Shown in pieces: positions 17,177-43,522 of a stretch of 64,000 bases of DNA. Made by a program: the position numbers and the translations under genes. The stretch is taken from positions 55,805-119,804 of the forward strand of contig NZ_JBHUHX010000009.1 in NCBI RefSeq assembly GCF_042682685.1. The letters run 5' to 3'. Source of the stretch: Thiorhodococcus fuscus (GTDB lineage Bacteria; Pseudomonadota; Gammaproteobacteria; Chromatiales; Chromatiaceae). Positions within the stretch are counted from its first letter, which is position 1. Each line of letters begins with the position of its first letter. The notes beneath the pieces are model-generated. The model saw only the letters and a list, made by a program, of their open reading frames with translations. It was not told the origin of the DNA and searched no databases.

Positions 17177-17201
17177 CCATGACCCCCTGATAGAGGGGAC
17201 C

Positions 17202-17651: not shown

Positions 17652-17665
17652 AGAGACAGAAACCC

Positions 17666-18666: not shown

Positions 18667-18827
18667 CACTGCCTGACCCCACAGGCCGCACTGCGCGGAT
18701 CCCCTCCGCGACCTCTGAATACTGTGCGTAATCAGCACAGAAACCCAATCGACACAACCCTTTCTCGTTGAGTCCTTCCGCATTGCCACAGGCACTGGCT
18801 TTCTCTTGAGCCGGTTGTGGGTGCTAT

Positions 18828-21751: not shown

Positions 21752-22707
21752 CCGCACTGTCCACCTTCACCTTCCCCGTCACTGCAGCCCAGGTCCGTAC
21801 CGTCACTGACGAGAATGGCGATCCATGGTTCGTCGCCAAGGATGTGGCCGATGCCCTTGGGTATGAGAACACGATGGAAGCGGTGCGCTACCACTGCAAA
21901 CGCGCTAAGGCGTTGAATACATTGAAGCAGAGCAAAATGCTCTCCTTGCATCCGCACACGAAGCTCATCCCCGAGGCCGACATCTACCGTCTGGTGATGC
22001 GCTCCAAGCTCCCGTCCGCCGTTGAGTTCGAGGAATGGGTTGTCGAGGAAGTCCTGCCCTCCATCCGCAAGACTGGCAGCTACTCCATGCAGCCTGCTCT
22101 CCCTGACTTCACCGATCCGGCAGCCGCCGCTGAAGCATGGGCGAAGGAGTACCGGGACAAGATGGTCATGATCGACTTCGCCAAGAAGCAGGCAGCCCAG
22201 CTCACCGAGCAGGCCCCGCTGGTGGACTTCGCCGAGGCTGTCGTCGCCGACAGTGAGGACTGCTACATCCGCGATGCAGCCAAGACGGTCGATGTCGCCC
22301 CCTTCCGGCTCTACGAGATCCTCCGTCAGTACAAGTGGATCCCTGAGTCCGATGTCTACCGGATGGTGATGCGTTCCACCCTCTCGGCTGCCTCTCGATC
22401 ACTGAGCTGGTGGGCTCTCGTCACGACAAGGTCAAGCAAAGCATCGAGCGCCTCGCAAACCGTGGTGTTATCACTCAACCTCCAATGGAGGATGCGTCCT
22501 ACAAAGACGGACCCGGCAGCACCATCGTCACCTAGCTCTTCATCTTCTCCGGTGAGCAAGGCCGGCTGGACTCCTTCTCGGTGGTCGCCCAGCGGTTGCC
22601 CACACCGAGCGTCTCACCTGCATGCTGGATATAGACGAAGTTCAAAGCCACCGGTTTGGTGGGTTTGGACCTCGCGGGTCGATGCCGCCGAAGCACAAAA
22701 CCTATAA
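21748..22707 (+). CDS. Bro-N domain phage antirepressor, apparently frameshifted into a Rha-like segment
   Basis: N-terminal Bro-N signature: GDPWFVAKDVADALGY..EADIYRLVMRSKLP.A.EFE.WV...VLPSIRKTGSY. After ~aa 230 the frame becomes low-complexity, while another frame encodes SELVGSRHDKVKQSIERLANRGVI (Rha-family motif). Confidence 0.55.
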   Translation: MTALSTFTFPVTAAQVRTVTDENGDPWFVAKDVADALGYENTMEAVRYHCKRAKALNTLKQSKMLSLHPHTKLIPEADIYRLVMRSKLPSAVEFEEWVVEEVLPSIRKTGSYSMQPALPDFTDPAAAAEAWAKEYRDKMVMIDFAKKQAAQLTEQAPLVDFAEAVVADSEDCYIRDAAKTVDVAPFRLYEILRQYKWIPESDVYRMVMRSTLSAASRSLSWWALVTTRSSKASSASQTVVLSLNLQWRMRPTKTDPAAPSSPSSSSSPVSKAGWTPSRWSPSGCPHRASHLHAGYRRSSKPPVWWVWTSRVDAAEAQNL

Positions 22708-23640
22708 ATCGTCGGTTTTCGGACCTTGTGGCGTAAATTTAATAAACTAATCATAGGCTTACAATGAATCCCTCGGTGAAAGCGAGGCAGCAAATCACCT
22801 CAATGAGGACGAAGCACAAAACCTGCAAATCGCCGGTTCTGGAAATTGTGATGTGAATTTGATAAGTGAATCAGGGCTTTACGGGGCGATCCTTGGTAGC
22901 CACAAGGCGGAAGCCAACCGGGTTCAAGCGCTGTTCAGCAAGGATTTTCACGGCAACTCTCGCGAATCACGAGGGTCGCGGTTGCGTTCGGATACCAAGC
23001 TGAATCCCCGAGGCTGACATCTACCGTCTGGTGATGAAGTCCCGCTTCCCGTCCGCTACGCGGTTTTAGGAGTGGGGTGTCGATCCGTTCGACCCCCTTG
23101 GCGAGCGGGAAAGGGGCCGCATCCGTTGTGACCCCTGGCGCGTGGATAGGGTGGACGGCAAATTTCCTCCCCCTCTGAAAAGACCAAGCGGATAACCTCG
23201 ATTATGGTTCGCCTGACTGGAAGGGGGTTAATCCGATTAACACCCCTGGGGGAAATCAAGAGGTTACGGTGCTCACCGAGCAGGGTCTCTACTTCTTCGT
23301 CGCCCGCTCCGACAAGCCCTGCGCTCGGCCCTTCCAGAAGTGGAAGGGTACGAAACCGATTCGTACCCCTGGTGGAGCCCAGAAGGTGACCAAATCGTTG
23401 GTTCATGGACCCAAGGGTGGAAGGGGGCGAGCCTCGATTCCTGGCGTTGTATGTTGCACTGGTGCCGAGCCACTCCGATGCCCACAACATGACCACCAGG
23501 CTGGACACGGACGAAGTACAAAACCTGCAAATCCCAGGTTTGCTCACTCGCGGCGTGAATTTGATAAGCGAATCATGGCTTTACGAAGCGATCCTTGGTA
23601 GCCACAAGGCGGAAGCCAAGCGGTTCAAGCGCTGGGTCAA
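22690..23640. repeat. Array of degenerate direct repeats made of Bro-N antirepressor gene fragments
   Basis: Three copies of a 70-125 bp unit beginning gaag(c/t)acaaaacct(g/a)(c/t)aaatc.. at about 22690, 22811 and 23512. Copies 2 and 3 are ~90% identical over ~125 bp. Additional Bro-N-like peptides occur at 22990-23050 (ADIYRLVMKSRFPSA) and 23204-23350 (LTEQGLYFFVARSDKPCARPFQKW). Confidence 0.55.
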
Positions 23641-23995
23641 GCGTGAAGTCCTGCCCACCATCCGCAAGACCGGCAGCTATTCGCTCCAGCCTCAACCCCA
23701 GATCCCACAGTCCTTGCCCGAGGCACTCCGTCTCGCCGCCACGCTGGCCGAAGAGAAAGAGCGCCTCGCCCAGGAGAACGCGCAGCTCACCCACATCACG
23801 TCCGTCCAGAACGACATGCTTGAAGCCACTGCCCCCAAGGCTGCCCTTCTCGATCAAGCGTTCGAGGATGACCGCTGGGTTAACGTGACCGACTTCGCCA
23901 GCCGGCTGGAAGGCGTCAACCGCAACAGCCTGACTTCAGTGATCCGGGTTATAGGAGGCGCGGTTGCAGTTAGCTATCAAGCCACTCGTTTGTAA
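23405..23995 (+). pseudogene. Bro-N C-terminal half fused to a KilA-C-like tail (antirepressor remnant)
   Basis: ESWLYEAILGSHKAEAKRFKRWVKREVLPTIRKTGSYSLQ is the distal half of a Bro-N domain without its N-terminal half. Preceded by repeat debris. Confidence 0.45.
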
Positions 23996-25037
23996 CTTCA
24001 CGGTACTTGCCGATGAAGTCCTCACGACCACAAAGCCGAGGTTCTGTCAGCAAATGGTAGGCTCTATTTATGGCCTGCCCGATCTCTTCCCGAGTCAACT
24101 CTGCACAGAACACCGAGAAGAAATCAGATAGATCGACAACAGCAAGATCGAAGCTCAGGTGCTCGATGAAATCTATTAGTTTGGACGCGGGATATAGATC
24201 GCTATCACCCCGGACATCGGAAGCGAATATTACGTATTTTGGCAGATTGCCCCGAACCGCTTTCTTTTGAAAATCACTAAGTCGGTTCTTCCAATCATCC
24301 CTTACCGTTACCTCGAATGCCGCTATTAGCAAGTCCTCTCTGTATTCCTCAATATCTCCAGTTGCCCCATCGAATTTGTCAGATGCATGCGGGTGATGTG
24401 TAATAACTCGATGCCCATATCGCTTTCGATGGACTTCAATGAAGGCGGCAACCAAGAACTGCTGGATGTGACCCTCTGAGGGTACTTTCATCAGCCTTTC
24501 GCAGAGACGAAGACTTCTCGCATACGACAAATAACCCCTTGGTAAAACTGGCAGTGCTTGCGGAATCACCTTGGATTGTTCAAGTCTCCATACAATGTGA
24601 TTGACAAGCGCTTCCCTTTCTGCTGGCTGCAGGCATTCAAGGTTGCTCACGAATGATGCAAAGCGTATATCAGCCGAGAGATCAAACTGGCGCACCGCTC
24701 CCTTCCAGCCTAAATTTTCACCAAATGCCGTTATGCTGTTGTGAAGTGTGACATGCCGTTGAGTCAGCTCCCCTGCGAGTCTCTTATCACCATACTTACC
24801 TCGCGCCCCTACTGGGACGGTCTTAAAATCCCACTCTTCATCAATCAACGAATATGCTGCCAGGAAAGCACAAGCAAGTCTCACGCTTCCGCGCTGCGAT
24901 TCTATATGGCTATCAAATATCGCTTTGACATTTCTAGGCGCAGGCTCTCCAAGAACCTCTCCTTCTGATAGGCGATCAAGCCTATCAAGAATAATATCTA
25001 CAGCCTTCTCTACACTTTCATTTCGTCTTCGTTTCAT
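23970..25037 (-). CDS. Putative Type II restriction endonuclease (partner of the adjacent C5-MTase)
   Basis: 355 aa, markedly low-GC ORF. 4-bp overlap with the methyltransferase gene. No motif assignable by eye. Confidence 0.5.
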   Translation of the reverse strand: MKRRRNESVEKAVDIILDRLDRLSEGEVLGEPAPRNVKAIFDSHIESQRGSVRLACAFLAAYSLIDEEWDFKTVPVGARGKYGDKRLAGELTQRHVTLHNSITAFGENLGWKGAVRQFDLSADIRFASFVSNLECLQPAEREALVNHIVWRLEQSKVIPQALPVLPRGYLSYARSLRLCERLMKVPSEGHIQQFLVAAFIEVHRKRYGHRVITHHPHASDKFDGATGDIEEYREDLLIAAFEVTVRDDWKNRLSDFQKKAVRGNLPKYVIFASDVRGDSDLYPASKLIDFIEHLSFDLAVVDLSDFFSVFCAELTREEIGQAINRAYHLLTEPRLCGREDFIGKYREVTNEWLDS

Positions 25038-26083
25038 AGCGCCAATTCCATTTGATTGAAATCCTCATTTGCAGGCACAAGACCCGAAGGAGATTGAACT
25101 CCATTGGCCTGAGAATACAAAGCCGCGCCTATGGCAAATGCCAGATCAGGTGGAACTGCGTCTCCCACTTGCTTGTACTGAGACGAGCGTTTGCCAGAGA
25201 AAGCCATCTCGCTAGGAAAGGTCTGGATTATGGCGCACTCTTCCACGCTAAGGCGACGAGCACCAGGCACTATACCTTGCCACGGCTCTCCACCAGCGCG
25301 GAGATGAGAGTGGTACTTCGGGGCAATATTTTCCGTATCTATCCAGTGAGTCTTGTATCCGCCCGATGATGCCAGGATTGTGTGGCAGGGTCCGTTGGGA
25401 TCGATAGGGCGTCCACCTCCATTATAGACATGCCCAGCGTATGGACTCGGGCGTAAGTCTGGATACTTAGCGAAACGCACAGGGCAGTTCGGTGCTTCAC
25501 CGATAGGATCCGGGCCAAGCCTACTAGCCGCACTTACGTGCGGTAGCGATGTGTTTTCGCCATGGGTTGGCGTAGGTAGAAGTAAGCGATGTGAGCGGGA
25601 GCCGAGTATAAATAGTCGCCTTCTCTTCTGCGGCACGCCATAATCCGCAGAGTTAATTACAGACCAGTTAATGTGATATCCACATGCAGCCAGCCTTGAA
25701 AGGACTGACTCAAAATACGGGCGAGCCTTCTTGAGTGTAAGACCAGGAACATTTTCCATGAGGAAATACGCTGGCCGAACTTCGTTGAGACATCGGATGA
25801 ACTCTGGAATCATATCCCTTTCGTCCGCATGCCCTTTGCGCAACCCACCGATTGAAAAAGGTTGGCACGGAGGTCCGCCAACGACAATGTCAACTCGGCC
25901 TCGAAATGGCGAGAAGTCAATCTTGCGAACATCTTCGTTGAAGTGGTTTGAGCTGCCATGGTGCAAGGCGTATGTATCCATAGCATCTCGGTTGATCTCG
26001 ACATTTGCCACAATATCGAAACCAGCCCTCTGGATGCCTAAAGAAAGACCGCCTGGCCCTGAGAATAGGTCGATGCCTTTCAC
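25034..26083 (-). CDS. DNA (cytosine-5)-methyltransferase
   Basis: 349 aa. Motif I DLFSGPGG, motif IV GGPPCQPFS, motif VI ENV, motif VIII QKRRRLF. Confidence 0.9.
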   Translation of the reverse strand: MKGIDLFSGPGGLSLGIQRAGFDIVANVEINRDAMDTYALHHGSSNHFNEDVRKIDFSPFRGRVDIVVGGPPCQPFSIGGLRKGHADERDMIPEFIRCLNEVRPAYFLMENVPGLTLKKARPYFESVLSRLAACGYHINWSVINSADYGVPQKRRRLFILGSRSHRLLLPTPTHGENTSLPHVSAASRLGPDPIGEAPNCPVRFAKYPDLRPSPYAGHVYNGGGRPIDPNGPCHTILASSGGYKTHWIDTENIAPKYHSHLRAGGEPWQGIVPGARRLSVEECAIIQTFPSEMAFSGKRSSQYKQVGDAVPPDLAFAIGAALYSQANGVQSPSGLVPANEDFNQMELAL

Positions 26084-26496
26084 TGATATTGGTATCGCTT
26101 CTGGTCGGATAAGCCCCTGCTCTTGCTATCGGATGTGGGAGATCTTTCCGACAACGAGGCAGACAGGGCTAGTAGGGAACTTGCAGCAAAGAGGCTAGGC
26201 AAACCTAGCTTGCTTGACGTAGAGTAAAAGCCGTCCGCCGAGGTGCTGACAACACCCCGACGACAAAGCAAGGCCGCCACTAACGGCTTGCACCGGCTCG
26301 GACATGATACAGCCCCAGGGGTTGGTCTGTCCGCTCAAGGCCCAACTACGCTGATTCCTAGCCAAGTTGCGCCTGGAGTTCCCGTTCCTTCCTCCTGGGA
26401 GAGCCTCTGCCCCTGACGCTGCTGCCTCACCGACAGCGTCGGACTGCCTGTGTGAGCGGTCGATTTCTCAAATCCAACTCTTGGAGAGATCGACCC

Positions 26497-26793
26497 ATGA
26501 AATCCCATGAACAGCTCCTCGCCCCTGGCTCCACCGAGAAGACCGTCGCCACTGCCGACCTGAACATCCGCAGCACGATCAGTCTGGATGTTTACGCCGG
26601 AACCAGATCCTGGATGTGGAAGGTCTACCTCAACAAGGAGGAGCTGACGAGCCAGAGCGGCTACTCCACCCACGCCTTGGCCAGCCAGGCCGGATTGGCG
26701 GAATGGGACCGGATCGTCTCGGCGGTCACCGGCTCGAACATCAAGGCCATCGAAGCCAATGTCGCTGCCGCTGAGAAGGAGCCGTCCGCATGA
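26497..26793 (+). CDS. Hypothetical protein upstream of the replication ATPase
   Basis: 98 aa. ATG at 26497. Its stop overlaps the downstream start (ATGA). Confidence 0.35.
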   Translation: MKSHEQLLAPGSTEKTVATADLNIRSTISLDVYAGTRSWMWKVYLNKEELTSQSGYSTHALASQAGLAEWDRIVSAVTGSNIKAIEANVAAAEKEPSA

Positions 26794-28406
26794 ACCCAAG
26801 CCCCCTCCTTGCTGAGGGGGTGTCCAACACCTCCAGGCACACTTCCGTATCCAACGCTGTTGGAGCCTCAGCATCTAGCGCTGTTGAAGCCTCTGCGCCC
26901 AGCACAGCCGAAGCCCCCGACACTCCGCTGCCGGACTTCACCCCAGTCGCCACCATCCGCCGACCCGATGGTCAAGAGACCCAAGTCGTCCGTGACCGCT
27001 GGGGCAGCCATCTGCTGCACTCTCCCGACAACCCCGGATGGGTCCGGGTCCATCGAGACGGAGCGGGCAACTGGATCGAGCGCGAGACCGGGATCGTCCA
27101 TGCCACCGATGGCAGCGTGATCCACCCCAAAGACATCTTCGGCGCATCATCCGAGGGATTCATCGACGTGAACACCAAGGCAGCCTCGACCATCAAGCCC
27201 GACCCCGTGCGTTGGCTTTGGCCCGGATGGCTCGCGGCCGGGAAGGTCCACCTCCTGGCTGGAGCACCAGGCACAGGGAAGACCACCGTCAGCATGGCTC
27301 TGGCGGCGACGGTCTCGCTTGGAGGCAGATGGCCCGATGGAACCGAAGCCCTCCAAGGTGATGTCCTGATCTGGTCCGGGGAGGACGACATCAAGGACAC
27401 CCTGGTCCCGAGGCTCATGGCTGTGGGGGCTGATCTCAATCGCGTCCACTTCATCACGACCACCAACACCGAGGATGGCCTGAGAGCCTTCGATCCAGCC
27501 GTCGACATCGACCTCCTGGCCGACAAGATGGCCTGGATGGATCCTTGCCCTTCCTTGCTGATCGTCGATCCCATCGTGGCAGCGGTCTCTGGAGACAGTC
27601 ACCGCAACGCCGAGGTCCGGCGAGCCTTGCAGCCCTTGGTTGACCTGGCCGCTTCCCGTCACTGCGCTGTTCTGGGGATCTCCCACTTCAGCAAGGGCAG
27701 CTCGGGACGAGATCCGATTGACCGGGTGACCGGATCGCTGGCCTTCGGTGCCCTGGCGCGGGTGGTCATGGCAACCGCTCGGCTGCCGGACGACCACCCC
27801 AGTGGAGTGAGGCGGATCCTGGCCCGAGCCAAGAGCAACATCGGCGAGGATGGTCAGGGGTTCGGATACGACCTGGAGCTGGAGGAACCGGTCGAGGGAA
27901 TCGAGGCGACCCGAGTCCTCTGGGGCGAGATGCTCGAAGGCAGCGCCAGGGAACTCCTGAGCATGGCCGAGCCGGTCCCTGATGGCGAGGGTGAGAGCAA
28001 CGCCGATGTCGAGTCCTTCGTTCGCGGGCTCCTGGCCGATGGTCCAGTCTCCGCCAAGCAGATGAAGGCCGATGCCGATGGAGCCGGCTACTCCTGGGAT
28101 CGGGTGAAGCGAGCCGCCAGCCGGATCGGAGTGGAGCGGAGGAAGGAGGACTTCAGCAAGGGCTGGGTATGGTCGCTCTCCACGGACCATGACGGTCGAT
28201 CAAGAACGGTCGCTCTGGAGGAGCTGATCCGGGATGCCCTGGCACAGGGAGAACGCACGGCCCAGGAGATGAAGGTCATGATCGAGGAAGCCGGCTATTC
28301 CTGGGATCAAGGCAAGCGAACCGCCGCCAAGCTGGGCATCGAGCGCCAAAAGTCCGGTTACCAGGGACCGTGGACCTGGACGCTGGGAGAGGCTGCCGCC
28401 GCCTAG
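26790..28406 (+). CDS. RepA-like AAA_25/RecA-fold replication ATPase of integrative elements, with two tandem ~57-aa C-terminal repeats
   Basis: 538 aa. WLAAGKVHLLAGAPGTGKTTVSMALAATVSLGGRWPDG (Walker A in AAA_25 context), LLIVDPI (Walker B). The C-terminus has a duplicated module ..GAGYSWDRVKRAASRIGVERRK.. / ..EAGYSWDQGKRTAAKLGIERQK.. Confidence 0.75.
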   Translation: MNPSPLLAEGVSNTSRHTSVSNAVGASASSAVEASAPSTAEAPDTPLPDFTPVATIRRPDGQETQVVRDRWGSHLLHSPDNPGWVRVHRDGAGNWIERETGIVHATDGSVIHPKDIFGASSEGFIDVNTKAASTIKPDPVRWLWPGWLAAGKVHLLAGAPGTGKTTVSMALAATVSLGGRWPDGTEALQGDVLIWSGEDDIKDTLVPRLMAVGADLNRVHFITTTNTEDGLRAFDPAVDIDLLADKMAWMDPCPSLLIVDPIVAAVSGDSHRNAEVRRALQPLVDLAASRHCAVLGISHFSKGSSGRDPIDRVTGSLAFGALARVVMATARLPDDHPSGVRRILARAKSNIGEDGQGFGYDLELEEPVEGIEATRVLWGEMLEGSARELLSMAEPVPDGEGESNADVESFVRGLLADGPVSAKQMKADADGAGYSWDRVKRAASRIGVERRKEDFSKGWVWSLSTDHDGRSRTVALEELIRDALAQGERTAQEMKVMIEEAGYSWDQGKRTAAKLGIERQKSGYQGPWTWTLGEAAAA

Positions 28407-28419
28407 CGGTTAGCCGCCA

Positions 28420-28610
28420 AAGGGAGCGGAAGGGGGCGAAGAAGTGGACTCAAGTCTACGTGCTCCCTTCCGCGCTCTTTGCTCCCTTCTGCACTCTTTG
28501 GCTGCATTCTTCCGCATTCTTTGGCGCGACCACGGCTCAAAGGGAGCAGAAGAGTGCAAGGGAGCAGAAGGGAGCACTGGAATTTGAGTGCATCCTTCGC
28601 CTTCTTCGGT
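28420..28610. repeat. Iteron-like direct repeats inside a long imperfect palindrome (candidate origin/regulatory region downstream of repA)
   Basis: Direct repeats gcactctttgg / gcattctttgg / gcattcttcc, flanked by inverted arms gtgctcccttc..tgctcccttctgcact and agtgcaagggagcagaagggagcac. Confidence 0.35.
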
Positions 28611-29040
28611 GCTCCCTTCGCGTCGATTCATGCGCAGCCGAGGGACTGAGGCGCGTCCGCCGACTGTCCGCGCCGGTGAGAGTGAAGACCTTGGATGTTT
28701 TGCCATAAAAATCTGAAGTGGCACATCTAGAGCGCGGCTTCTGAATTCCCCCCCGTCCCGCCCCTGCATTCCGCCATTCGCCTTCTTTCGTCCCGCCTCT
28801 GGGGTATGCCCCAGTCTCCACCGCAAGCCAGCCGCCAAGCAGACAACCAAGCCTCTCCGGTCCACCGCTCCGGCCATCCACCGAGCCCTCCAAGCCTTGC
28901 CCTACCGGTGAAGCCCCGAGGCTCTGGCACCTTAGCGCTTCCGTCTTCGATGGAGCCTGATACATCGGCACTCTGTCGCCGCTCTTTCCGTTGCCGCAGC
29001 ACCAGCTCATCCGACTGCCAAGGGACGTGATGTGTCCCTT

Positions 29041-29190
29041 CGATGTCGTGTCCAGTGGGTACACCTTCTTGGACACTTCGGCCATGCCCATGGATCAGCG
29101 GGTTATCGTGTCCAACAAAGTTGATATTGCATTATCTTGACACTTGCAAAGATGAGCTTTAGGCTTTTTTGGACACTTCGAGACACGCCC
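29041..29190. promoter_or_regulatory. Candidate res-like site / resolvase operator
   Basis: Several TGTCCA/TGGACA half-site dyads (cgtgtccagtggg, ttggacacttcgg, cgtgtccaacaaa, ttgacacttgcaa, ttggacacttcga) and an AT-rich core directly upstream of the resolvase start. Confidence 0.4.
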
Positions 29191-29211
29191 ACATGAGAGG
29201 AGCGCACAGCC

Positions 29212-29769
29212 ATGTCAGGACAGCAGGTCGGATATATCCGGGTCTCTTCGGTCGATCAGAACAGCGACAGACAGTTGGTCGATGTCGAGCTGGACAAGAC
29301 CTTCACCGAGAAGGCATCGGGCAAGAACACCGCAGGTCGGCCAATCCTGGCTCAGTGCCTGGCATATGTGCGCGAAGGCGACACCATCCACGTCCACAGC
29401 ATCGACAGGCTGGCCCGGAACCTCGCCGAGCTGCAGTCCCTGGTGGACGATCTGGTGAGCTGTGGCGTGTCGGTCCAGTTCCACAAGGAGAACCTGACCT
29501 TCCAGGCTGGAGCGGGTGATCCGATGCAGCGGCTGATGCTGCAAATGATGGGAGCCTTCGCCGAGTTCGAGCGGTCGATGATCCGAGAGCGCCAGCGGGA
29601 AGGGATCGCGGAAGCGAAGCGCCAGGGCAAGCAGATCGGGAGAGCCAGGAAGCTGGACGATGATCAGATTGCAGCGGTCAGGGAACGCATCGCCAAGGGT
29701 GAGAACAAGAAGGCGATTGCTGCCGATCTGGGGATCTCAAGGCAGACGCTGTACAGCGCCTTGGGCTGA
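29212..29769 (+). CDS. Small serine recombinase (resolvase/invertase family) with C-terminal HTH
   Basis: 185 aa. GYIRVSSVDQNSDRQ catalytic serine region, DRLARN, C-terminal HTH ISRQTLYSAL. Confidence 0.9.
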   Translation: MSGQQVGYIRVSSVDQNSDRQLVDVELDKTFTEKASGKNTAGRPILAQCLAYVREGDTIHVHSIDRLARNLAELQSLVDDLVSCGVSVQFHKENLTFQAGAGDPMQRLMLQMMGAFAEFERSMIRERQREGIAEAKRQGKQIGRARKLDDDQIAAVRERIAKGENKKAIAADLGISRQTLYSALG

Positions 29770-30979
29770 ACACCCGAGAGACACTACGACCTAGATCAAT
29801 TATTTTGGGGTCTATTGTTAATGATGTGTTCAGCGTATGCACCACCTCGACCAGATCGCTCTGGTTCGCCATGACGGCGTCGATGTCCTTATAGGCGGCG
29901 GGGATCTCGTCGATGACCCCCTTGTCCTTGCGGCACTCGACGCCCTGGGTCTGGACCTCCAGATCCTTGCGGGTGAAGCGCCGGGTCGCCTCGCCACGAC
30001 TCATACGCCGACCCGCTCCGTGCGAACAGGAACAGAATGACATGGGGTTCCCCAGTCCGCGCACGATGTAGGACTTGGCGCCCATGCTCCCCGGGATGAT
30101 GCCCAGATCGCCCTCGCGCGCCCGGATGGCACCCTTGCGGGTCAGATAGACCTCCTTGCCGAAATGCTGCTCGCGCGTCACGTAGTTGTGGTGACAGTTG
30201 ATCGCCTCCGAGGTCGCCTCGAACGGCGGCAGCTGTCCGCGCAGCGCCTCGATGATGAGCCGCATCATCTGACGACGGTTCTCCATCGCATAGTCCTGGG
30301 CCCAGCCGACCGCCTCGACATAGTCGTCGAAGTGCTGGCTGCCCTCGGGCAGATAGGCCAGGTTGTGATCGGGAAGCTGGATCTTCCAGCGCTCCATCTC
30401 GCGCTTAGCCAGCTCGATGAAATGCATCCCGATCCGATTGCCGATCCCGCGCGATCCCGAGTGGAGCATGATCCAGACCTGCTGGGACTCGTCGAGACAG
30501 AGTTCGATGAAATGGTTTCCGCCACCCAGCGAGCCGAGCTGACTCTTCCAGCGCGCATTGACCTTGGGATGCTTGGCCAGGATCGGCTCGAGACCGGGCG
30601 CCACCCGGGCGAGCCCCTCCTCGCACCAGTGCTCCTGACCGTGTCCGTCCATCCCGACCGGCACCCTGGCCTCGATCGCCGAACGCACCCGGGCCAGCGA
30701 GTCCGGCAGCTGGTCCGCGCGCAGCGAGAGCCGCAGGGCGTTCATGCCGCAACCGATGTCGACGCCCACGGCTGCCGGGATGATGGCCCCGACTGTCGGG
30801 ATCACCGAGCCGATGGTCGCGCCCATCCCCCAGTGCACGTCCGGCATCGCCGCCACGTGCGAATGGATGAAGGGCAGATGGGAGACGTTTTCGAGCTGCT
30901 TCATGGCGTTCTCGGCCACGTCGTCCGTATAGATCTTGACCGGAACCCGGCCCTTGCTGATGACTCGCTTGATAGGCAT
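29678..30979 (-). CDS. rtcB: RNA-splicing ligase RtcB, native C-terminus replaced by the element junction
   Basis: Hallmark motifs GGGNHFIE, HSGSRG, CHHNY, SHGAGR. The native frame runs 30979 down to ~29834 (..DLVEVVHTL) and then reads 50 unrelated codons antisense to the resolvase gene instead of the canonical ..KQVLTVKG end. Confidence 0.85.
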   Translation of the reverse strand: MPIKRVISKGRVPVKIYTDDVAENAMKQLENVSHLPFIHSHVAAMPDVHWGMGATIGSVIPTVGAIIPAAVGVDIGCGMNALRLSLRADQLPDSLARVRSAIEARVPVGMDGHGQEHWCEEGLARVAPGLEPILAKHPKVNARWKSQLGSLGGGNHFIELCLDESQQVWIMLHSGSRGIGNRIGMHFIELAKREMERWKIQLPDHNLAYLPEGSQHFDDYVEAVGWAQDYAMENRRQMMRLIIEALRGQLPPFEATSEAINCHHNYVTREQHFGKEVYLTRKGAIRAREGDLGIIPGSMGAKSYIVRGLGNPMSFCSCSHGAGRRMSRGEATRRFTRKDLEVQTQGVECRKDKGVIDEIPAAYKDIDAVMANQSDLVEVVHTLNTSLTIDPKIIDLGRSVSRVFSPRRCTASALRSPDRQQSPSCSHPWRCVP

Positions 30980-31004
30980 GGTCTTCTCCGTCGATGAAGC
31001 TGGG

Positions 31005-31095
31005 TTCACCGAATCGAACCGCAAAAGCGCAAAGGGCGCGAAGCCGGAATATCAAAGCTCTTTGCGTTCTTCGCGCCTTTGCGGTTCAAACTGTC
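31005..31095. repeat. MITE/REP-like hairpin element, copy 1 (in the rtcB upstream region)
   Basis: Inverted arms gaaccgcaaaagcgcaaagggcgcgaag / cttcgcgcctttgcggttc. Related to the copy at 33661-33795. Confidence 0.5.
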
Positions 31096-31391
31096 TTATC
31101 CGTATTCCCGCGACCTCGCACTCGGTCCGATTCGACCGGATCGCGTCCGTGGAAGGCGTCGATGCCGTCCTCGATGGCCTGGCGATGGCCGGCGCGGATG
31201 CTGGAGGCGGATCGCACGTGCGGACCGCCCTTGCGCAACAGTGGCGATCGGGCCACCGGGTTTCTCCGTTTGTTCATCTCGATTCGTCCTTTCATGAAGG
31301 GCCGCCGTCCATGGCGGCATTCCGTTTCATCCTGACCAGCGCGACCTATCCCGCATTCGCTGGAAGCTGACCGCTGGAGGCTGGCCGCTCA

Positions 31392-32609
31392 TCACCCCTT
31401 GGGCGCCTCGATCCGGACCAGTCCCTGCAGCAGCGATTCCATGCCGCCGAAGACGGTCAGGCTGCCGACCCGCTCGGTGACGCGTTCGAGCGCCTCCAGT
31501 TCCTTGAGCCGCAGCAGCACCGGGTTCTGGTCCATCAGCTTGGCGGTGTTGAGCAGCGACCGGGTCGCGGCCGTCTCCTCGCGCCGACGGATGAGGTTGG
31601 CCTGAGCCGCCTTCTCCGCCTCCACCACCTGGTTGAGGATCTGCTTCATGTCGCCCGGCAGGATGACGTCCTTGATCCCCAATGATTCGATCGTGATCCC
31701 ATGCGGGTCGGCCCGCTCGCGAATGGCGACCAGCACCTCCTGTTCGGTCGTGCCCTTCCGCTCCAGGAGTTCATCCAGGGTCCGGTCTGAGATGGCCCGG
31801 CGCAGTCCGAACTGAAGCTCCCGGTACAGGAAGTCCTTGTGCTTGGGCAACCCGGCCCGAAGCCGGACCGGATCCATGACCCGATACTGGGCGCTCAGGT
31901 TGATCCGCAGACTTACCTTGTCGCGGGTCAGAATCTCCTGGCCCTGGACCTCGATCTCCTGCAGACGCAGATCCGTCAGCTCCACCTGAACATTGCGATC
32001 GAAGTTCCAGAAGGCGTGCACACCCGGCTCTAGGATCCCGACCAGCCGGCCATCGAGCAACAACAGACCCGTCTCATGGTCGGCGATCTCCTCCTCGATG
32101 ATGTCGTCCAGGAACTCGGCACCCGGCAGCTTGCTGCCGGCCGACCGTGCCTTGGCCCGATACTCGGCCGGGGCCCTGGTCCAGCCATCCCGATGACGCA
32201 TCCGGCGGATGCGATCCATCACCTCGGGCCCCACGGCGACACCCTCTGTCAGATCGATTCGCTCGACCCGCACCTCGACCGGCCCCTTCCAGTAGAAGCG
32301 ACGGCTCATGGGCGGAATCAGGCGGGTCAGCTGTCCGTCCAGATAGACGAGCCCGGCCTCATGCTCGCCGGTCTCGACCGTTTCGACCCACAGATTCCAG
32401 AGCGTTGAGGACTCCTTGCGGAACACCTCGGCATGCGGATGGGCCAGTTCCGGATCGGTCAGATCGAAGGTCTCGAACTCCAGCGATCCGACGATATCCA
32501 GCCAGCGATAGACGCCAGGTCCGAGCACCTGCTCCAGCACTCCATTCTTCAGTACCAGCACACGCTCGTGCTGGGCGACGACCTGTCGCTTGTATCCCAT
32601 GATGTTCAT
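31392..32609 (-). CDS. SPFH/band-7 (slipin-like) family protein
   Basis: 405 aa. The C-terminal half carries the SPFH signature (ITIESLGIKDVILPGDMKQILNQVVEAEKAAQANLIRRREETAA). Co-oriented immediately upstream of rtcB. Confidence 0.75.
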   Translation of the reverse strand: MNIMGYKRQVVAQHERVLVLKNGVLEQVLGPGVYRWLDIVGSLEFETFDLTDPELAHPHAEVFRKESSTLWNLWVETVETGEHEAGLVYLDGQLTRLIPPMSRRFYWKGPVEVRVERIDLTEGVAVGPEVMDRIRRMRHRDGWTRAPAEYRAKARSAGSKLPGAEFLDDIIEEEIADHETGLLLLDGRLVGILEPGVHAFWNFDRNVQVELTDLRLQEIEVQGQEILTRDKVSLRINLSAQYRVMDPVRLRAGLPKHKDFLYRELQFGLRRAISDRTLDELLERKGTTEQEVLVAIRERADPHGITIESLGIKDVILPGDMKQILNQVVEAEKAAQANLIRRREETAATRSLLNTAKLMDQNPVLLRLKELEALERVTERVGSLTVFGGMESLLQGLVRIEAPKG

Positions 32610-33137
32610 CTTCCCGCTCTCCTCTGTGCCGTCGCTGTCGGCGGCATGACCAGCCGTTTCGGCCTGCCCGCCGCCCCGATCAAGAATCCGGCATTGCTGT
32701 ATGTCCCGTTGTCGTTGGTCGGTTGGTGGAGCCGGAGTCGGGTCGCCAACGTTCGGCCCGATCCCGGCGTTCTATCGATTCGGTGTCCGGCTCGGACCGG
32801 ACATCGTTCGGAGCCGGCCGCTCGAAACCGCCGGCTGAAAGAAGGAAAGGCTCGCCCCGCGTCGCGCCGATGGGCCAGGACAGCTGCATGGCCGGAATCG
32901 TTCAGCTCGATCGATCCGCATCCCTGCGGCACCGCCCGCCATCCGGCGAGATCGCCCGAAACCGCACGATGTCTATCCATGCGTCGTATCCTGGCTCGAG
33001 ATCGCCACGACGCCCCCGATCCGGCCTCCCTGCCGGCCCGCCATTCGGCGCGCATATCCATCTGATCGGGCCGGGGCTCACCCTGTGGTCTTGATTGGAC
33101 AGGTCATCCAATCGAGTGCGACGGTCAGTCGCCAAAG

Positions 33138-33210
33138 AGACAGCGGCGGGATTCGAACCCGCGCCGGACTGGTTATCGGCCAGTTGCTCTACCCACTGAG
33201 CTACGTTGTC
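33138..33210 (-). tRNA. tRNA-like element, Ile(GAU)-like anticodon, noncanonical (C at position 33, A-C mismatch at 5:68). Possible pseudo-tRNA or tRNA-mimic ncRNA.
   Basis: Folds into a 73-nt cloverleaf: acceptor GACAACG/CGCUGUC, D-arm GCUC-AGUGGGUA-GAGC, anticodon arm ACUGG-CCGAUAA-CCAGU, T-arm GCGGG-UUCGAAU-CCCGC with GGTTCGAATCC. No CCA encoded. Confidence 0.5.
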
Positions 33211-33357
33211 GCCTCACGGCCGCCAGGCAATGGGTACGGACCGAGGGAACGCACTGGGCGCCCTGGCCCGCCACCGGGGCATACCGAACCCCAGGCGCTG
33301 ATCGCTCGACGATCGCCGCAAGATGGTGATGCCTGAAATCCTCGATCTTCAGGCATG

Positions 33358-33391
33358 AAAAAACCCCGACCAGTGCTCCCGGTCGGGGTTT
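33358..33391 (-). terminator. Rho-independent terminator (strong on the minus strand, weak on plus)
   Basis: Stem ccccgacc/ggtcgggg with a 9-nt loop. The minus-strand transcript is followed by UUUUUU, the plus-strand one only by UUU. Confidence 0.5.
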
Positions 33392-33660
33392 CGTATCCCA
33401 CCGGAAGGCCCTCCAATCGAGCCTTCCGAGATTGCAATCGCGAAATGACTCAGCGCAGAGACAGGGTACTCAGCGTCCGCCCCAGCAAGGAGCCGTGCTT
33501 CCCTCGTTGATCCATGTCGTCTCTGAATGTCATCTGAACTCTATTCCTCGCGATTCATTGATGCGTTGATTCGATGGGCGGTTAGTCTAGCCAGAAATTC
33601 AAGCAAGTCAACGAAAATATCAAGATTCTTGTAAAATCCATGTAAAGCGCCCATCAGACC

Positions 33661-33795
33661 GAAGCAATCGAACCGCAAAGGCGCAAAGATCACGAAGAAA
33701 AACAATCGGCTCTGCATATGTCGCGTTTCTCTCGATCCGAATGCATCGAACATATCGCATAGAGGTTCTTTGCGTCCTTTGCGTCTTTGCGGTTC
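33661..33795. repeat. MITE/REP-like hairpin element, copy 2 (upstream of the XRE regulator gene)
   Basis: gaaccgcaaaggcgcaaagatcacgaag ... ttctttgcgtcctttgcgtctttgcggttcc. Shares terminal sequences with the copy at 31005-31095. Confidence 0.5.
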
Positions 33796-33834
33796 CAAAT
33801 TCCCGTATCAGGAACAGGATCCAAACCACCCACC

Positions 33835-34425
33835 ATGCAATCAGCCAACATCCCTGGCCGTATCAAGCTCGCCCGCAAGATGGCGGGGTTTCGCACCCAG
33901 GCCAGTCTTCTCGCCCGGATATCTGGATGGAAATCCTCTCGTCTCGGCAACTACGAGGCCGGCATCTCCACGCCCAGCGCGGACGACATGCTGCTGATCG
34001 CCGAGGCGACCGGCGTATCGGCCTGCTGGCTGATGTTCGGACAGGGACCCATCCGGCCCAATGAGCGCGACCTGCAGGCGGTTCGTCATCAGAACCTGGC
34101 GCACGTACTGGATGGAATCGAAGGGGATCGGGAGCGTCTCGAGGAGACGGTGAAAGGGCTGCGGATCTCGCGCAAGCGGCTCAGGGAACATCTGGACAAT
34201 CCCTTCCTGCCGATCACGGACGAGTTGGCGCGACGTCTGGAACGTCTGCTCGGCACTCAGCCGGGCTGGGTCGACGAGCAGCATGTGGAGCGCGACCCGC
34301 TGTTCCTCTCGTTTCCCGAGGAGATGCGGGAACTGATGATGATCTATTCGGAGCTGCCGGCCGCCCAGCGGCCGGTGCTGATGGCGACGGTCCGAGCCTT
34401 GAGGGATTCGCTTCAGACCGTCTGA
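33835..34425 (+). CDS. XRE-family (Cro/C1-type HTH) transcriptional regulator with C-terminal domain
   Basis: N-terminal HTH IKLARKMAGFRTQASLLARISGWKSSRLGNYEAG. Start taken at the internal ATG 33835 (MQSANIPG). Confidence 0.6.
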   Translation: MQSANIPGRIKLARKMAGFRTQASLLARISGWKSSRLGNYEAGISTPSADDMLLIAEATGVSACWLMFGQGPIRPNERDLQAVRHQNLAHVLDGIEGDRERLEETVKGLRISRKRLREHLDNPFLPITDELARRLERLLGTQPGWVDEQHVERDPLFLSFPEEMRELMMIYSELPAAQRPVLMATVRALRDSLQTV

Positions 34426-43505: not shown

Positions 43506-43522
43506 CCTTGCCAGATCGATCA

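What the first reader, a model, noticed from the sequence alone, without database searches (positions are those of the whole stretch)
30979..33835. The RNA-repair locus is atypical: SPFH protein-rtcB, no rtcR or rtcA, more than 1 kb of noncoding DNA and an XRE regulator
rtcB is co-oriented with an upstream 405-aa SPFH/band-7 gene, not the usual sigma54 activator RtcR and cyclase RtcA. I could not find a convincing -24/-12 promoter upstream of rtcB. Comparative-genomics surveys of RNA-repair operons have reported band-7/SPFH partners for RtcB, so this may be one of those poorly understood variants. An XRE-family regulator gene lies 2.8 kb upstream, beyond a long noncoding stretch that contains a tRNA-like element.
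Basis: partly seen in the sequence, partly recalled or inferred. Interest (0 to 1): 0.55.

Follow-up and report, generated by a model that had tools for sequence, protein, structure and literature searches.

The report
SPFH–tRNA-like RNA–RtcB repair cassette, ligase split
This is a member of a predicted but never tested bacterial RNA-repair cassette (a soluble SPFH scaffold protein, its tRNA-like RNA and the RtcB ligase); the "empty" 1.2 kb upstream holds a conserved control region and a large structured RNA, and the ligase gene in this genome is split by a 16.6-kb mobile element.

Summary
A 405-aa SPFH gene (31392-32609) lies upstream of and co-oriented with rtcB (start 30979). There is no rtcR, rtcA or sigma54 promoter here, 1.2 kb separate SPFH from a divergent XRE gene (33835), and that stretch holds a tRNA-like element (33137-33210).

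- rtcB is split. A 16,602-bp serine-recombinase element (13230-29831) replaces its last 8 codons, and the remnant sits at 13203-13229.
- The "tRNA-Ile" is not a decoding tRNA. It has C33 and no CCA, and relatives carry 26 different triplets.
- In this clade it lies inside a covarying structured RNA of about 330 nt (33322-32983), followed by a further conserved hairpin at 32877-32849.
- Across the family, a sigma70 promoter, a short leader ORF, a hairpin and a strong terminator precede the RNA. This looks like a ribosome-sensing attenuator.
- A conserved small basic protein lies between SPFH and rtcB.

Verdict: a new member of a known, uncharacterised kind, with new regulatory and RNA detail. 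The mechanism is inferred, not shown.

The parts
33835..34425 (+). XRE-family regulator gene (196 aa from the conserved ATG), divergent from the cassette
   Evidence: Pfam HTH_3 1.4e-8. Weak NCBIfam hits to DicA/RstR repressors. Homologues (73-93% identity in the close clade, 44-55% in four more distant loci) lie at the same divergent position in 13 loci.
33621..33631 (.). Palindrome CAAGAATCTTG, a candidate operator just upstream of the -35 hexamer
   Evidence: ACAAG...CTTG is invariant in 10 clade sequences while the flanks diverge. The operator role is inferred.
33584..33611 (-). Sigma70-type promoter, TTGACT-16-TAGACT
   Evidence: It is the only promoter-like site in 30900-33900. TTGAC and TAGACT are invariant in 10 clade sequences. 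Competibacter loci have TTGACT-17-TATAAT at the same place.
33450..33533 (-). Leader ORF of 27 codons (MTFRDDMDQRGKHGSLLGRTLSTLSLR), with stop TGA at 33452-33450
   Evidence: The 27-codon length and the position are kept in 6 clade sequences (window, L001, L002, L005, L086, L088), and L091 has 29 codons at the same place, although the peptide varies. Family-wide, an ATG ORF of 15-60 codons ends 55-110 nt before the terminator T-run in 34 of 35 loci, against 8.8 +/- 2.5 in shuffles. With a stricter definition it is 27 of 33, against 1-12 of 33 in other windows.
33401..33430 (-). Hairpin 1 (CTCGGAAGGC...GCCTTCCGG). Its 3' arm can also pair with the 5' arm of the terminator.
   Evidence: 97% paired across 14 sequences, with 3 compensatory pairs. 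For the alternative pairing, duplex z averaged -1.45, with 24 of 34 loci below -1 (the window's own row in that test was mis-positioned and should be disregarded).
33358..33390 (-). Strong intrinsic terminator (AACCCCGACCGG-GAGCA-CTGGTCGGGGTT followed by TTTTTT)
   Evidence: Hairpin 1 and the terminator together fold at about -46 kcal/mol, and the terminator hairpin alone at about -24 kcal/mol in the near-identical L001. A homologous terminator lies 73-419 nt (mostly 150-320) upstream of the first tRNA-like element in 34 of 65 loci, against 9 of 65 on the opposite strand. 91% paired, with 3 compensatory pairs.
33329..33356 (-). Covarying hairpin directly after the terminator
   Evidence: The arms change together between species: GCCTGAA/TTCAGGC, TCCGAAAT/ATTTCGGA and CCCGCGGG/CCCGCGGG.
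33214..33322 (-). 5' structured RNA domain: a long closing stem that encloses two hairpins
   Evidence: Predicted by RNAalifold. On 11 sequences, 7 of 12 pairs of helix 2 and 5 of 11 pairs of helix 4 show compensatory changes. An insertion in Thiorhodovibrio falls in a loop.
33137..33210 (-). b7a-tRNA-like element, called tRNA-Ile(GAT) by ARAGORN
   Evidence: It has C33 instead of U33, an A5.C68 mismatch and no encoded CCA. On 65 family members the cloverleaf is 93% paired with strong covariation. The anticodon differs among close relatives.
33093..33133 (-). Two hairpins 3' of the tRNA-like element (GGCGAC..GTCGC and GATTGGA..TCCAATC)
   Evidence: 3 of 6 and 3 of 7 pairs are compensatory on 11 sequences.
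33012..33077 (-). 3' four-way-junction (cloverleaf-like) domain: a closing helix and three hairpins
   Evidence: Independent MFE folds of most of the 11 sequences give the same layout. The closing helix changes in step between species: GCCCGATC/GATCGGGC, GCCGTC/GACGGC and GCTGCTCC/GGAGCAGC. Hairpins H2 and H3 are 94-96% paired.
32849..32877 (-). Conserved GC-rich hairpin block (TGGCCCATCGGCGCGACGCGGGGCGAGCC), role unknown
   Evidence: It is the most conserved stretch between the RNA and SPFH in all 11 clade sequences. It is recognisable in Competibacter loci as CCCATCG...GGGG.
31392..32609 (-). SPFH/Band-7 ('slipin family') protein, 405 aa, soluble
   Evidence: Pfam Band_7 2.2e-28. 100% identical to a T. 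fuscus protein. The AlphaFold model (pLDDT 79) shows an N-terminal beta domain, an SPFH domain and a long helix. Foldseek finds stomatin, HflK/C and prohibitin, and major vault protein over the whole length. The highest 19-residue hydropathy is 1.20, so there is no membrane segment.
31086..31277 (-). Small basic protein ORF, 63 aa, pI 11.6, motif NPVARSPLLRKGGPH
   Evidence: It is conserved between SPFH and rtcB in L001, L002, L005, L086, L088, L089 and L090, and at other positions in L020 and L027. 49 homologues were found, all unnamed and without a Pfam family.
29829..30979 (-). rtcB, codons 1-383 (native part, up to the crossover core GAA)
   Evidence: Pfam RtcB 1.4e-130. The catalytic motifs GCGM, GGGNHF, HHN and SHGAGR are present. 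It is collinear with the intact 391-aa rtcB of T. drewsii and T. minor.
29678..29828 (-). Foreign 50-codon tail fused to rtcB. It is read from the end of the inserted element and overlaps the invertase gene on the other strand.
   Evidence: The hybrid ORF is 433 aa and ends ...VVHTL|NTSLTIDPKIIDLGRS....
13230..29831 (.). 16,602-bp integrative element inserted in rtcB. The TTC core is present at both junctions, at 13227-13229 and 29829-29831.
   Evidence: The empty site in T. drewsii reads CATACGCTGAAGCAGGTCTTGAC. GC content is lower, 0.48-0.65 per 1-kb window and mostly below 0.61, against about 0.64 in the flanks. Cargo includes Ant/Bro anti-repressors, a DEAD helicase, a type II restriction enzyme with a C5 methylase, an AAA_25 primase/helicase-like protein and a small invertase.
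13282..14832 (+). Large serine recombinase (516 aa) at the left end of the element
   Evidence: Pfam Resolvase, Recombinase and Zn_ribbon_recom. PHROG integrase phrog_95 at 2e-71.
13203..13229 (-). Displaced 3' end of rtcB: the core GAA, then codons for KQVLTVKG and the stop
   Evidence: Found by a six-frame motif search. Joining 29832 to 13229 restores a 391-aa RtcB that ends like its orthologues.

Best explanation
The locus is a Band-7(SPFH) / b7a-tRNA / RtcB RNA-repair cassette of Thiorhodococcus fuscus.

Shown:
- The gene order is XRE (divergent), then promoter, 27-codon leader ORF, hairpin, terminator, structured RNA with a tRNA-like core, soluble SPFH protein, small basic protein, and rtcB.
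- This order recurs in relatives that sit in different genomic surroundings.
- rtcB is split near its 3' end by a serine-recombinase element.

Inferred mechanism:
1. Transcription starts at the conserved sigma70 promoter, which the XRE protein represses through the palindrome beside the -35 hexamer.
2. Most transcripts stop at the intrinsic terminator after the leader ORF.
3. When translation is disturbed (damaged or scarce tRNA, stalled ribosomes), the ribosome on the leader ORF changes the fold. The 3' arm of hairpin 1 then pairs with the 5' arm of the terminator, and RNA polymerase reads through.
4. Read-through yields the multi-domain RNA, the SPFH protein, the small basic protein and RtcB.
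5. SPFH proteins assemble into rings or cages. This membrane-free one is proposed to hold the tRNA-like RNA and bring RtcB to broken tRNA or rRNA ends (2',3'-cyclic phosphate plus 5'-OH), which RtcB seals. The RNA acts either as an adaptor or as a tRNA look-alike that soaks up anticodon nucleases.

In T. fuscus the ligase carries a 50-residue foreign tail in place of its last 8 residues. It is therefore probably impaired unless the element excises.
For: Identity of the cassette:
- Band_7 and RtcB domains are present.
- A tRNA-like element lies upstream of SPFH on the same strand in 67 of 80 loci. rtcB lies downstream in 34 of 68.
- The published description of the system is quoted.

The RNA is not a decoding tRNA:
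- It has C33 and no CCA.
- 26 different triplets occur in 52 seven-nucleotide loops, including ACA, AAT, ATA and ATT. 13 of 65 loops are not 7 nt long.
- The outer three acceptor pairs are unpaired in 23-66% of members.

Structured RNA beyond the tRNA-like core:
- 81 pairs are 93.5% paired.
- 27 pairs show compensatory changes, against 12.1 +/- 2.3 in shuffles and 5-10 in slid controls.

Attenuator-like leader.

No sigma54 route.

XRE partnership.

SPFH fold, and lack of a membrane anchor.

rtcB split, with the empty site in relatives.

Independent experimental context:
- In Anabaena, rtcB, a slipin-family gene (alr0740) and a tRNA array are co-repressed by TrcR and induced by translation inhibitors (PMC10272220 and PMC8421152).
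- In P. aeruginosa PA14, an SPFH gene lies inside the rtcR-rtcA-rtcB locus (PMC13086221).
Against: - No experiment shows that the RNA, SPFH and RtcB interact, or that the RNA is made. The b7a-tRNA had not been validated as of the 2018 source.
- The leader ORF ends about 17 nt before hairpin 1, so a terminating ribosome would barely touch it. The way stalling would open the hairpin is not worked out.
- No regulatory codon run was found.
- SD-like motifs precede only 9 of 32 leader ORFs.
- The default fold strongly favours termination.
- rtcB is absent, truncated or interrupted in 5 of 12 loci of the close clade (the window, L004, L005, L089, L091). The SPFH-RNA core may therefore work without the ligase.
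- Loci were collected through SPFH, so the counts are biased towards SPFH being intact.
- Whether Anabaena alr0740 is an orthologue was not tested.
Confidence: 0.7

Rival explanations
1. Decoy version of the same cassette. The tRNA-like RNA is bait for anticodon nucleases from toxins, colicins or phage-defence and counter-defence systems. The SPFH cage presents or shields it, and RtcB re-seals it. The cassette therefore buffers the real tRNA pool rather than repairing it directly.
For: - The loop frame is kept (C32 71%, U33 69%, A37 and A38 79%) while the triplet is free. This fits a molecule that must look like a tRNA anticodon loop without decoding.
- 20 of 84 loci carry arrays of 5-34 ordinary tRNA genes beside the cassette.
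- A sponge role was proposed for array tRNAs in Anabaena (PMC8421152).
- The cassette sits in different genomic contexts, and rtcB is often lost. Both are typical of conflict systems.
Against: - Triplet variability can equally be simple lack of constraint. The variable loop and parts of the D loop are just as free.
- PADLOC models give no hit for SPFH or RtcB.
- No nuclease is encoded in the locus.
Confidence: 0.25
2. The promoter, leader ORF and terminator form a separate small gene (a small protein or small RNA) that merely neighbours the cassette. The tRNA-like RNA, SPFH and rtcB are then transcribed from an unrecognised promoter downstream of the terminator, controlled by XRE alone.
For: - The terminator is strong. 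The leader ORF stops 17 nt before hairpin 1, and no regulatory codons were found.
- Promoters in GC-rich DNA are hard to recognise, so one between 33357 and 33211 cannot be excluded.
Against: - The unit is linked to the tRNA-like element across distant taxa even though the genes upstream of it differ.
- The peptide sequence is poorly conserved, while its length and position are kept.
- The 3' arm of hairpin 1 stays complementary to the 5' arm of the terminator through different sequences in different lineages.
- The block once read as a -24/-12 promoter is a hairpin whose loop length varies.
Confidence: 0.25
3. Coincidental neighbours. On this reading, 33137-33210 is an ordinary tRNA-Ile gene, perhaps an island attachment site. 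SPFH is a membrane-scaffold gene and rtcB an unrelated paralogue.
For: - ARAGORN and Rfam call it a tRNA.
- tRNA genes are common integration sites.
- A mobile element is indeed present nearby.
Against: - The same position holds Gln, Ser, Met, Leu or non-standard loops in close relatives, while the body is unchanged.
- It has C33 and no CCA.
- No integrase lies next to it. The mobile element is inserted in rtcB, not in the tRNA-like gene.
- SPFH has no membrane segment.
- Linkage is conserved in dozens of loci.
Confidence: 0.03
4. The interruption of rtcB is a reversible genetic switch. The serine-recombinase element excises under some condition and restores the intact ligase gene, as with the skin element in sigK or the fdxN element excised by XisF.
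For: - The recombinase ORF is intact, and both junctions keep the GAA core.
- Precise joining restores a perfect 391-aa ORF.
- The element carries anti-repressor genes, which suggests inducibility.
Against: - Insertion in the last 8 codons is what elements do to minimise damage, not to gate a gene.
- No recombination directionality factor was identified.
- rtcB is also lost by plain deletion in relatives (L005, L089). This points to decay rather than control.
Confidence: 0.15

Closest known systems
Band-7/SPFH - b7a-tRNA - RtcB system (Burroughs and Aravind, Nucleic Acids Res 2016; summarised in bioRxiv 10.1101/312249)
   Same: A Band-7 protein, a tRNA-like RNA just upstream and RtcB downstream, all on one strand. 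There is no Ro protein and no Y RNA.
   Different: Several features seen here are not in the accounts I could read:
- a family-wide leader ORF with hairpin and terminator;
- 5' and 3' structured RNA domains around the tRNA-like core;
- an XRE partner;
- a small basic protein;
- a ligase gene split by a mobile element.
The original paper was not available, so I cannot say which of these its authors already noted.
RtcR-RtcA-RtcB operon of E. coli and Salmonella
   Same: An RtcB ligase with an intact catalytic core. It probably responds to damage of the translation machinery.
   Different: - There is no RtcR (CARF domain plus sigma54 activator), no sigma54 promoter and no RtcA in the window.
- Control appears to be through a sigma70 promoter, an XRE protein and a terminator.
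Rsr(Ro60)-YrlA/YrlB-RtcBA operon of Salmonella
   Same: A scaffold protein and an RNA with a tRNA-like module are encoded in front of rtcB.
   Different: - The scaffold is an SPFH protein, not a TROVE protein.
- The RNA keeps a complete anticodon arm.
- There is no Rfam match other than tRNA.
TrcR regulon of Anabaena PCC 7120 (rtcB, slipin alr0740, tRNA L-array)
   Same: rtcB and a slipin-family gene are co-regulated by a small repressor that does not use sigma54, and are induced by translation stress. tRNA arrays are associated with the system.
   Different: - TrcR is a ribbon-helix-helix protein, not an XRE protein.
- The Anabaena genes are dispersed.
- Orthology of alr0740 with this SPFH protein was not tested.
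Ribosome-dependent transcription attenuators (trp, his, pheA leaders; antibiotic-inducible leaders)
   Same: A short leader ORF is followed by two mutually exclusive hairpins and an intrinsic terminator, ahead of the regulated genes.
   Different: - The ORF stops about 17 nt before the first hairpin instead of overlapping it.
- There is no run of regulatory codons.
- The first product downstream is an RNA, not a protein.
Eukaryotic vault particle (major vault protein, vault RNA, TEP1)
   Same: The SPFH-type shoulder and long helix are preceded by beta-rich repeat domains. Major vault protein aligns over the whole model. A small structured RNA partners the protein.
   Different: - TM-scores are low (0.37).
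- There is no evidence of a cage.
- The protein is half the size of major vault protein.
Large-serine-recombinase elements that split genes (skin/sigK, SPbeta/spsM, fdxN element/XisF)
   Same: The recombinase gene lies at one end. The junctions share a 2-3 nt core, and precise excision would restore the gene.
   Different: - Only the last 8 codons are displaced.
- No directionality factor and no developmental context is known.

Membership tests
Band-7/b7a-tRNA/RtcB system | Band-7/SPFH domain protein | tested here: met
   Pfam Band_7 2.2e-28. The structure model matches stomatin, HflK/C and prohibitin.
Band-7/b7a-tRNA/RtcB system | tRNA-like RNA gene immediately upstream of the Band-7 gene on the same strand | tested here: met
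   33137-33210 (-) lies 527 nt upstream of SPFH. The same arrangement occurs in 67 of 80 related loci. The cloverleaf is supported by covariation on 65 sequences.
Band-7/b7a-tRNA/RtcB system | RtcB ligase encoded next to the Band-7 gene | tested here: met
   rtcB starts 412 bp downstream on the same strand. It is intact in T. drewsii and T. minor. In this genome it is interrupted after codon 383.
Band-7/b7a-tRNA/RtcB system | Physical or functional association of the protein, the RNA and the ligase | not testable with these tools
   This needs RIP-seq or pull-downs. The source says the RNA had not been validated experimentally.
RtcR-RtcA-RtcB operon | Divergent sigma54 activator RtcR with a CARF domain | tested here: not met
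   The divergent gene is an XRE HTH protein. The only sigma54 activator found in the window has a GAF domain and sits in the nif/rnf cluster. The rest of the genome was not searchable.
RtcR-RtcA-RtcB operon | Sigma54 (-24/-12) promoter upstream | tested here: not met
   No match with two or fewer mismatches lies upstream of rtcB, SPFH or the RNA. A perfect site at 41526-41541 serves as positive control. The GG..GC block at about 33293-33279 is a hairpin with variable loop length.
RtcR-RtcA-RtcB operon | RNA 3'-phosphate cyclase RtcA in the operon | tested here: not met
   rtcB is followed by the element and then by a convergent lactate/malate dehydrogenase gene. No RtcA was found among the window ORFs scanned.
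Rsr/Y-RNA-RtcB operon | Ro60/TROVE protein and a Y RNA (YrlA/YrlB) | tested here: not met
   No TROVE domain occurs in neighbouring ORFs. Rfam gives only tRNA, even at E <= 5.
Canonical decoding tRNA-Ile(GAU) | Universal U33, an encoded or addable CCA end on a fully paired 7-bp acceptor stem, and an anticodon kept in orthologues | tested here: not met
   It has C33, an A5.C68 mismatch and the 3' sequence TCTTTGG. Relatives at the same position carry TTG, GCT, CAT, TGA, CAG or a 6-nt loop.
Large-serine-recombinase integrative element | Recombinase with Resolvase, Recombinase and zinc-ribbon domains at one end; junctions with a short shared core; empty site in relatives | tested here: met
   for the domains. 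for the GAA core at both junctions and the intact attB in T. drewsii and T. minor.
Ribosome-dependent transcription attenuator | Short leader ORF followed by an intrinsic terminator ahead of the regulated genes | tested here: met
   A 27-codon ORF and a strong terminator (hairpin 1 plus terminator fold at about -46 kcal/mol) are present. The ORF is position-specific in 27 of 33 to 34 of 35 loci.
Ribosome-dependent transcription attenuator | Alternative antiterminator pairing that excludes the terminator | tested here: inconclusive
   The 3' arm of hairpin 1 pairs with the 5' arm of the terminator better than shuffled sequence does (mean z -1.45; 24 of 34 below -1). The pairing is kept through different sequences in different lineages. 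Its register varies, so no formal pair count was possible.
Ribosome-dependent transcription attenuator | Leader ORF overlaps the first hairpin, or carries regulatory codons | tested here: not met
   The stop codon lies about 17 nt before hairpin 1. No codon run was found, and there is no link between the b7a anticodon and leader codons (P = 0.59).

The most novel reading that the evidence does not exclude
The 1.2 kb of 'noncoding' DNA encodes two things that the accounts I could read do not describe for this system.

1. A family-wide attenuator that senses ribosomes: a leader ORF with mutually exclusive hairpins. It would switch the cassette on when translation falters.
2. A multi-domain RNA of about 330 nt (a 5' three-way junction, a tRNA-like core and a second cloverleaf-like junction), followed by a further conserved hairpin.

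Together with a small basic protein, this RNA would be housed by a membrane-free SPFH cage that carries RtcB. That would be a bacterial, vault-like ribonucleoprotein for rescuing or shielding tRNA.
Probability: 0.25. Interest if true: 0.75.

Novelty: new member of a known kind. Interest (0 to 1): 0.5.

Why it matters
The Band-7/tRNA-like RNA/RtcB cassette is widespread. This search found thousands of SPFH homologues across Proteobacteria and beyond. Yet, as far as the sources I could read show, no experiment has touched it.

This locus and its relatives give concrete, testable parts:
- a promoter with a likely operator;
- a leader ORF and terminator that may read the state of translation;
- a defined structured RNA;
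- a small basic partner protein.

Confirmation would explain how bacteria without RtcR induce RNA repair. It would also give SPFH proteins a cytoplasmic, RNA-linked role beside their known membrane roles.

The frequent loss of rtcB, here through a mobile element, suggests that the SPFH-RNA pair is the core of the system.

Tried and rejected
- **Sigma54 promoter at about 33293-33279** (TGGGG..N..ATGC). Rejected. In 11 sequences the spacing changes by 1-2 nt while the GGGG/CCCC arms stay paired, so it is a hairpin.
- **Small ORF as an ArfA-like rescue factor.** There was no Pfam or NCBIfam hit even at E <= 1, and all homologues are unnamed.
- **b7a anticodon matched to codons of the leader ORF** (a T-box-like idea). 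No association, P = 0.59.
- **SPFH or RtcB as parts of a catalogued defence system.** No PADLOC hit.
- **Known RNA families in 30800-33900.** Only tRNA was found. The weak mir-127 and RsmZ hits are far below threshold.
- **Relatives of the serine recombinase in viral contigs.** None.
- **Metagenome scan with a conserved 5'-domain pattern, to enlarge the RNA alignment.** One short contig only, which was not usable.
- **The original 2016 paper.** It could not be read, so what its authors already described is known to me only through a later preprint and my memory of the abstract.

Full report
**What is there**

The window comes from Thiorhodococcus fuscus, a purple sulfur bacterium of the Chromatiaceae. 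Its SPFH protein is 100% identical to a T. fuscus entry.

On the minus strand the order is:
- a tRNA-like gene at 33137-33210 (ARAGORN Ile-GAT; Rfam tRNA 64.7 bits);
- a 405-aa SPFH/Band-7 gene at 31392-32609 (Pfam 2.2e-28);
- a 412-bp spacer;
- rtcB starting at 30979 (Pfam RtcB 1.4e-130).

An XRE-type gene runs the other way from 33835 (HTH_3 1.4e-8). The 1,225 bp between it and SPFH hold no supported protein gene.

No rtcR or rtcA was found in the window. The only sigma54 activator is a GAF-domain, NifA-like protein in the nif/rnf cluster. No -24/-12 consensus with two or fewer mismatches lies upstream of rtcB, SPFH or the RNA. A perfect one lies before rnf at 41526-41541.

**rtcB is split**

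Similarity to RtcB stops at ...VVHTL. The ORF then runs on for 50 foreign codons into the opposite strand of an invertase gene.

The missing end (KQVLTVKG plus stop) lies at 13203-13229. T. drewsii and T. minor have an intact 391-aa rtcB in the same synteny (Ldh, SPOR, ArgS, PriA), with the empty site CATACGCTGAAGCAGGTCTTGAC. Both junctions in the window share the core GAA, so the insert is 13230-29831, or 16,602 bp. Joining the halves restores a perfect ORF.

The insert has these features:
- lower GC content;
- a 516-aa large serine recombinase at its left end;
- Ant/Bro anti-repressors, a DEAD helicase and an AAA_25 primase/helicase-like protein;
- a type II restriction enzyme with a C5 methylase, and a small invertase;
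- no virion genes.

The catalytic motifs of RtcB are intact. The replaced C-terminal strand aligns to the very end of the solved Thermus RtcB. Whether the hybrid protein works is unknown.

**What kind of locus it is**

The SPFH family is large: 7,997 of the 8,000 candidates scored had E <= 0.001. I collected 84 loci through it.
- A tRNA-like element lies within 900 nt upstream on the same strand in 67 of 80 loci with room. BLAST finds it in several more.
- rtcB follows on the same strand in 34 of 68, usually within 130 nt, and precedes in 4.

This is the Band-7 / band-7-associated tRNA / RtcB system predicted by Burroughs and Aravind in 2016. I could not read that paper. A later preprint describes the system and states that the RNA had not been validated.

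Related observations from the literature:
- An SPFH gene lies inside the rtcR-rtcA-rtcB locus of P. aeruginosa PA14.
- In Anabaena, rtcB, a slipin gene and a tRNA array are co-repressed by TrcR and induced by translation inhibitors.

**The tRNA-like element is not a decoding tRNA**

On 65 family members the cloverleaf is 93% paired.
- The anticodon and T stems covary, and the D stem is invariant.
- The three outer acceptor pairs are unpaired in 23-66% of members.
- Only 12 of 65 carry CCA.

The window's copy has C33, an A.C mismatch and no CCA. Close relatives share its body, but at the same position they read Gln-TTG, Ser-GCT and Ser-TGA (neither with the extra-long arm of a true tRNA-Ser), Met-CAT, Leu-CAG or a 6-nt loop. 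Across the family there are 26 triplets in 52 seven-nucleotide loops, including ones bacteria do not use. The loop frame (C32, U33, A37, A38) is kept in about 70-80%.

**The RNA is larger than a tRNA in this clade**

I aligned eleven sequences whose SPFH proteins are 61-96% identical to the window's. They share:
- a 5' domain of about 110 nt;
- the tRNA-like core;
- two hairpins;
- a four-way junction that resembles a second cloverleaf;
- a further hairpin;
- a conserved GC-rich block.

For 81 proposed pairs, 93.5% of cells pair. 27 pairs show changes on both sides, against 12.1 +/- 2.3 in shuffles and 5-10 when partners are slid. Independent folds of most of the sequences give the same 3' junction, and its closing helix changes in step between species.

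Two caveats apply. Part of the structure came from RNAalifold run on five of these sequences, and the sample is small and related. Outside the clade only the tRNA-like core is alignable. However, many loci have two tRNA-like units in tandem, and Competibacter loci keep the same overall layout.

**A conserved control region**

Ten clade sequences share an invariant ACAAG...CTTG palindrome, TTGAC(A/T) and TAGACT.

Downstream come, in order:
- a leader ORF, 27 codons in six sequences and 29 in one;
- hairpin 1;
- a strong intrinsic terminator;
- a covarying hairpin;
- the RNA.

This unit is family-wide.
- A homologous terminator lies upstream of the first tRNA-like element in 34 of 65 loci, against 9 of 65 on the other strand.
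- An ATG ORF of 15-60 codons ends 55-110 nt before the T-run in 34 of 35 loci, against 8.8 +/- 2.5 in shuffles.
- With a stricter definition it is 27 of 33, against 1-12 of 33 for ORFs ending in other windows.
- The 3' arm of hairpin 1 is complementary to the 5' arm of the terminator more than shuffled sequence is (mean z -1.45). This holds through different sequences in different lineages.

This is the layout of a ribosome-dependent attenuator. Three weak points remain:
- The ORF ends about 17 nt before hairpin 1.
- No regulatory codons were found, and the b7a anticodon does not match leader codons (P = 0.59).
- Only 9 of 32 ORFs have an SD-like motif.

I found no promoter between the terminator and the RNA, but one cannot be excluded in GC-rich DNA.

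**Other parts**

The XRE gene is a divergent partner in 13 loci of Chromatiales, Methylococcales and relatives. It is absent from Competibacter, Burkholderiales and Xanthomonadales loci.

A 63-aa basic protein (pI 11.6; motif NPVARSPLLRKGGPH) lies between SPFH and rtcB in the clade, and elsewhere in the locus in two distant taxa. It belongs to no named family.

The SPFH protein has no membrane segment. Its model shows a duplicated beta domain, an SPFH domain and a long helix. It matches stomatin, HflK/C and prohibitin, and major vault protein over its full length at low TM-score.

**How it probably works**

Steps 1-4 below are inferred. The parts themselves and their conservation are shown.
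1. XRE represses the sigma70 promoter.
2. Transcripts that start there mostly end at the terminator.
3. Disturbed translation of the leader favours the antiterminator, so the RNA, SPFH, the small protein and RtcB are made.
4. The soluble SPFH oligomer holds the tRNA-like RNA and RtcB. Together they either repair cut tRNA or rRNA, or offer a tRNA look-alike to nucleases.

The induction of Anabaena rtcB and slipin by translation inhibitors fits this picture but does not prove it.

rtcB seems the most expendable part. In the close clade it is interrupted (window), reduced to residues 326-391 (L005) or 172-391 (L089), or absent (L004, L091). Remnants also occur in L043, L045 and L081. These loci were found through SPFH, which biases the comparison.

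**Verdict**

The locus is a new member of a known but untested kind.

New here, as far as I can tell:
- the split ligase gene;
- the leader-terminator unit;
- the extended RNA;
- the XRE partner;
- the small-protein partner.

The mechanism remains inference.

Noticed in passing
L008, L036, L068, L072 and 16 other loci (e.g. L036:431-4046): 20 of 84 SPFH loci carry 5-34 ordinary tRNA genes in arrays beside the cassette, mostly upstream on the same strand. In L068 they lie on both sides. They resemble the long tRNA arrays linked to rtcB and translation stress in cyanobacteria.
   Followed up: partly
L092:5670-5830 (E. coli STEC639, CP061233.1): An E. coli relative of the SPFH protein (42% identical) is followed by a nucleotidyltransferase gene rather than rtcB. 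It is preceded by a perfect sigma54 promoter (CTGGCACGCTTCTCGCA) and a T-arm-like GGGTTCGATTCCC, with no full tRNA call. This is a sigma54-driven variant in a tractable host.
   Followed up: partly
window 23970-26083: The inserted element carries a type II restriction enzyme (PADLOC REase_II, 6e-99) next to a C5 cytosine methylase. This is the lowest-GC part of the window (0.48-0.52).
   Followed up: partly
window 17175-17306 and 21218-21250: Three direct copies and one inverted copy of a 33-nt repeat (GACCATGACCCCCTGATAGAGGGGACCATGACG) lie inside the inserted element. They may be iterons or binding sites.
   Followed up: no
window 47860-48702: A 280-aa ORF with a TIR_2 domain (2.9e-13) sits in a local GC dip (0.53). 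It may be a defence gene.
   Followed up: no
window 41526-45118: A perfect sigma54 promoter (TGGCACCCCGTTTGCA) lies upstream of the rnf genes. Nearby are a PAS histidine kinase and a GAF-domain sigma54 activator (NifL/NifA-like), with NifB-like and DraG-like genes further on.
   Followed up: no
L091:3029-5200: In this relative no rtcB follows SPFH. Instead there is a Prim-Pol/PriCT_1 gene on the other strand, perhaps another mobile element at the same place.
   Followed up: no
L005:7129-7491 and L089:4620-5342: rtcB is reduced to its last 66 residues in L005, where it is fused in frame to the small basic ORF. In L089 it is reduced to its last 220 residues. These losses are independent of the insertion seen in the window.
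   Followed up: partly
L015:7280-8230, L051:7158-7898, L052:2874-3902, L055:7146-7973: In other lineages the SPFH-rtcB spacer holds different, unrelated genes of 250-360 aa. These form at least four small families, which suggests a variable cargo slot.
   Followed up: no
window 34479-35183: A PhoU-family gene lies next to the XRE gene in T. fuscus. It was not seen at this position in the relatives examined, so it is probably unrelated to the cassette.
   Followed up: no
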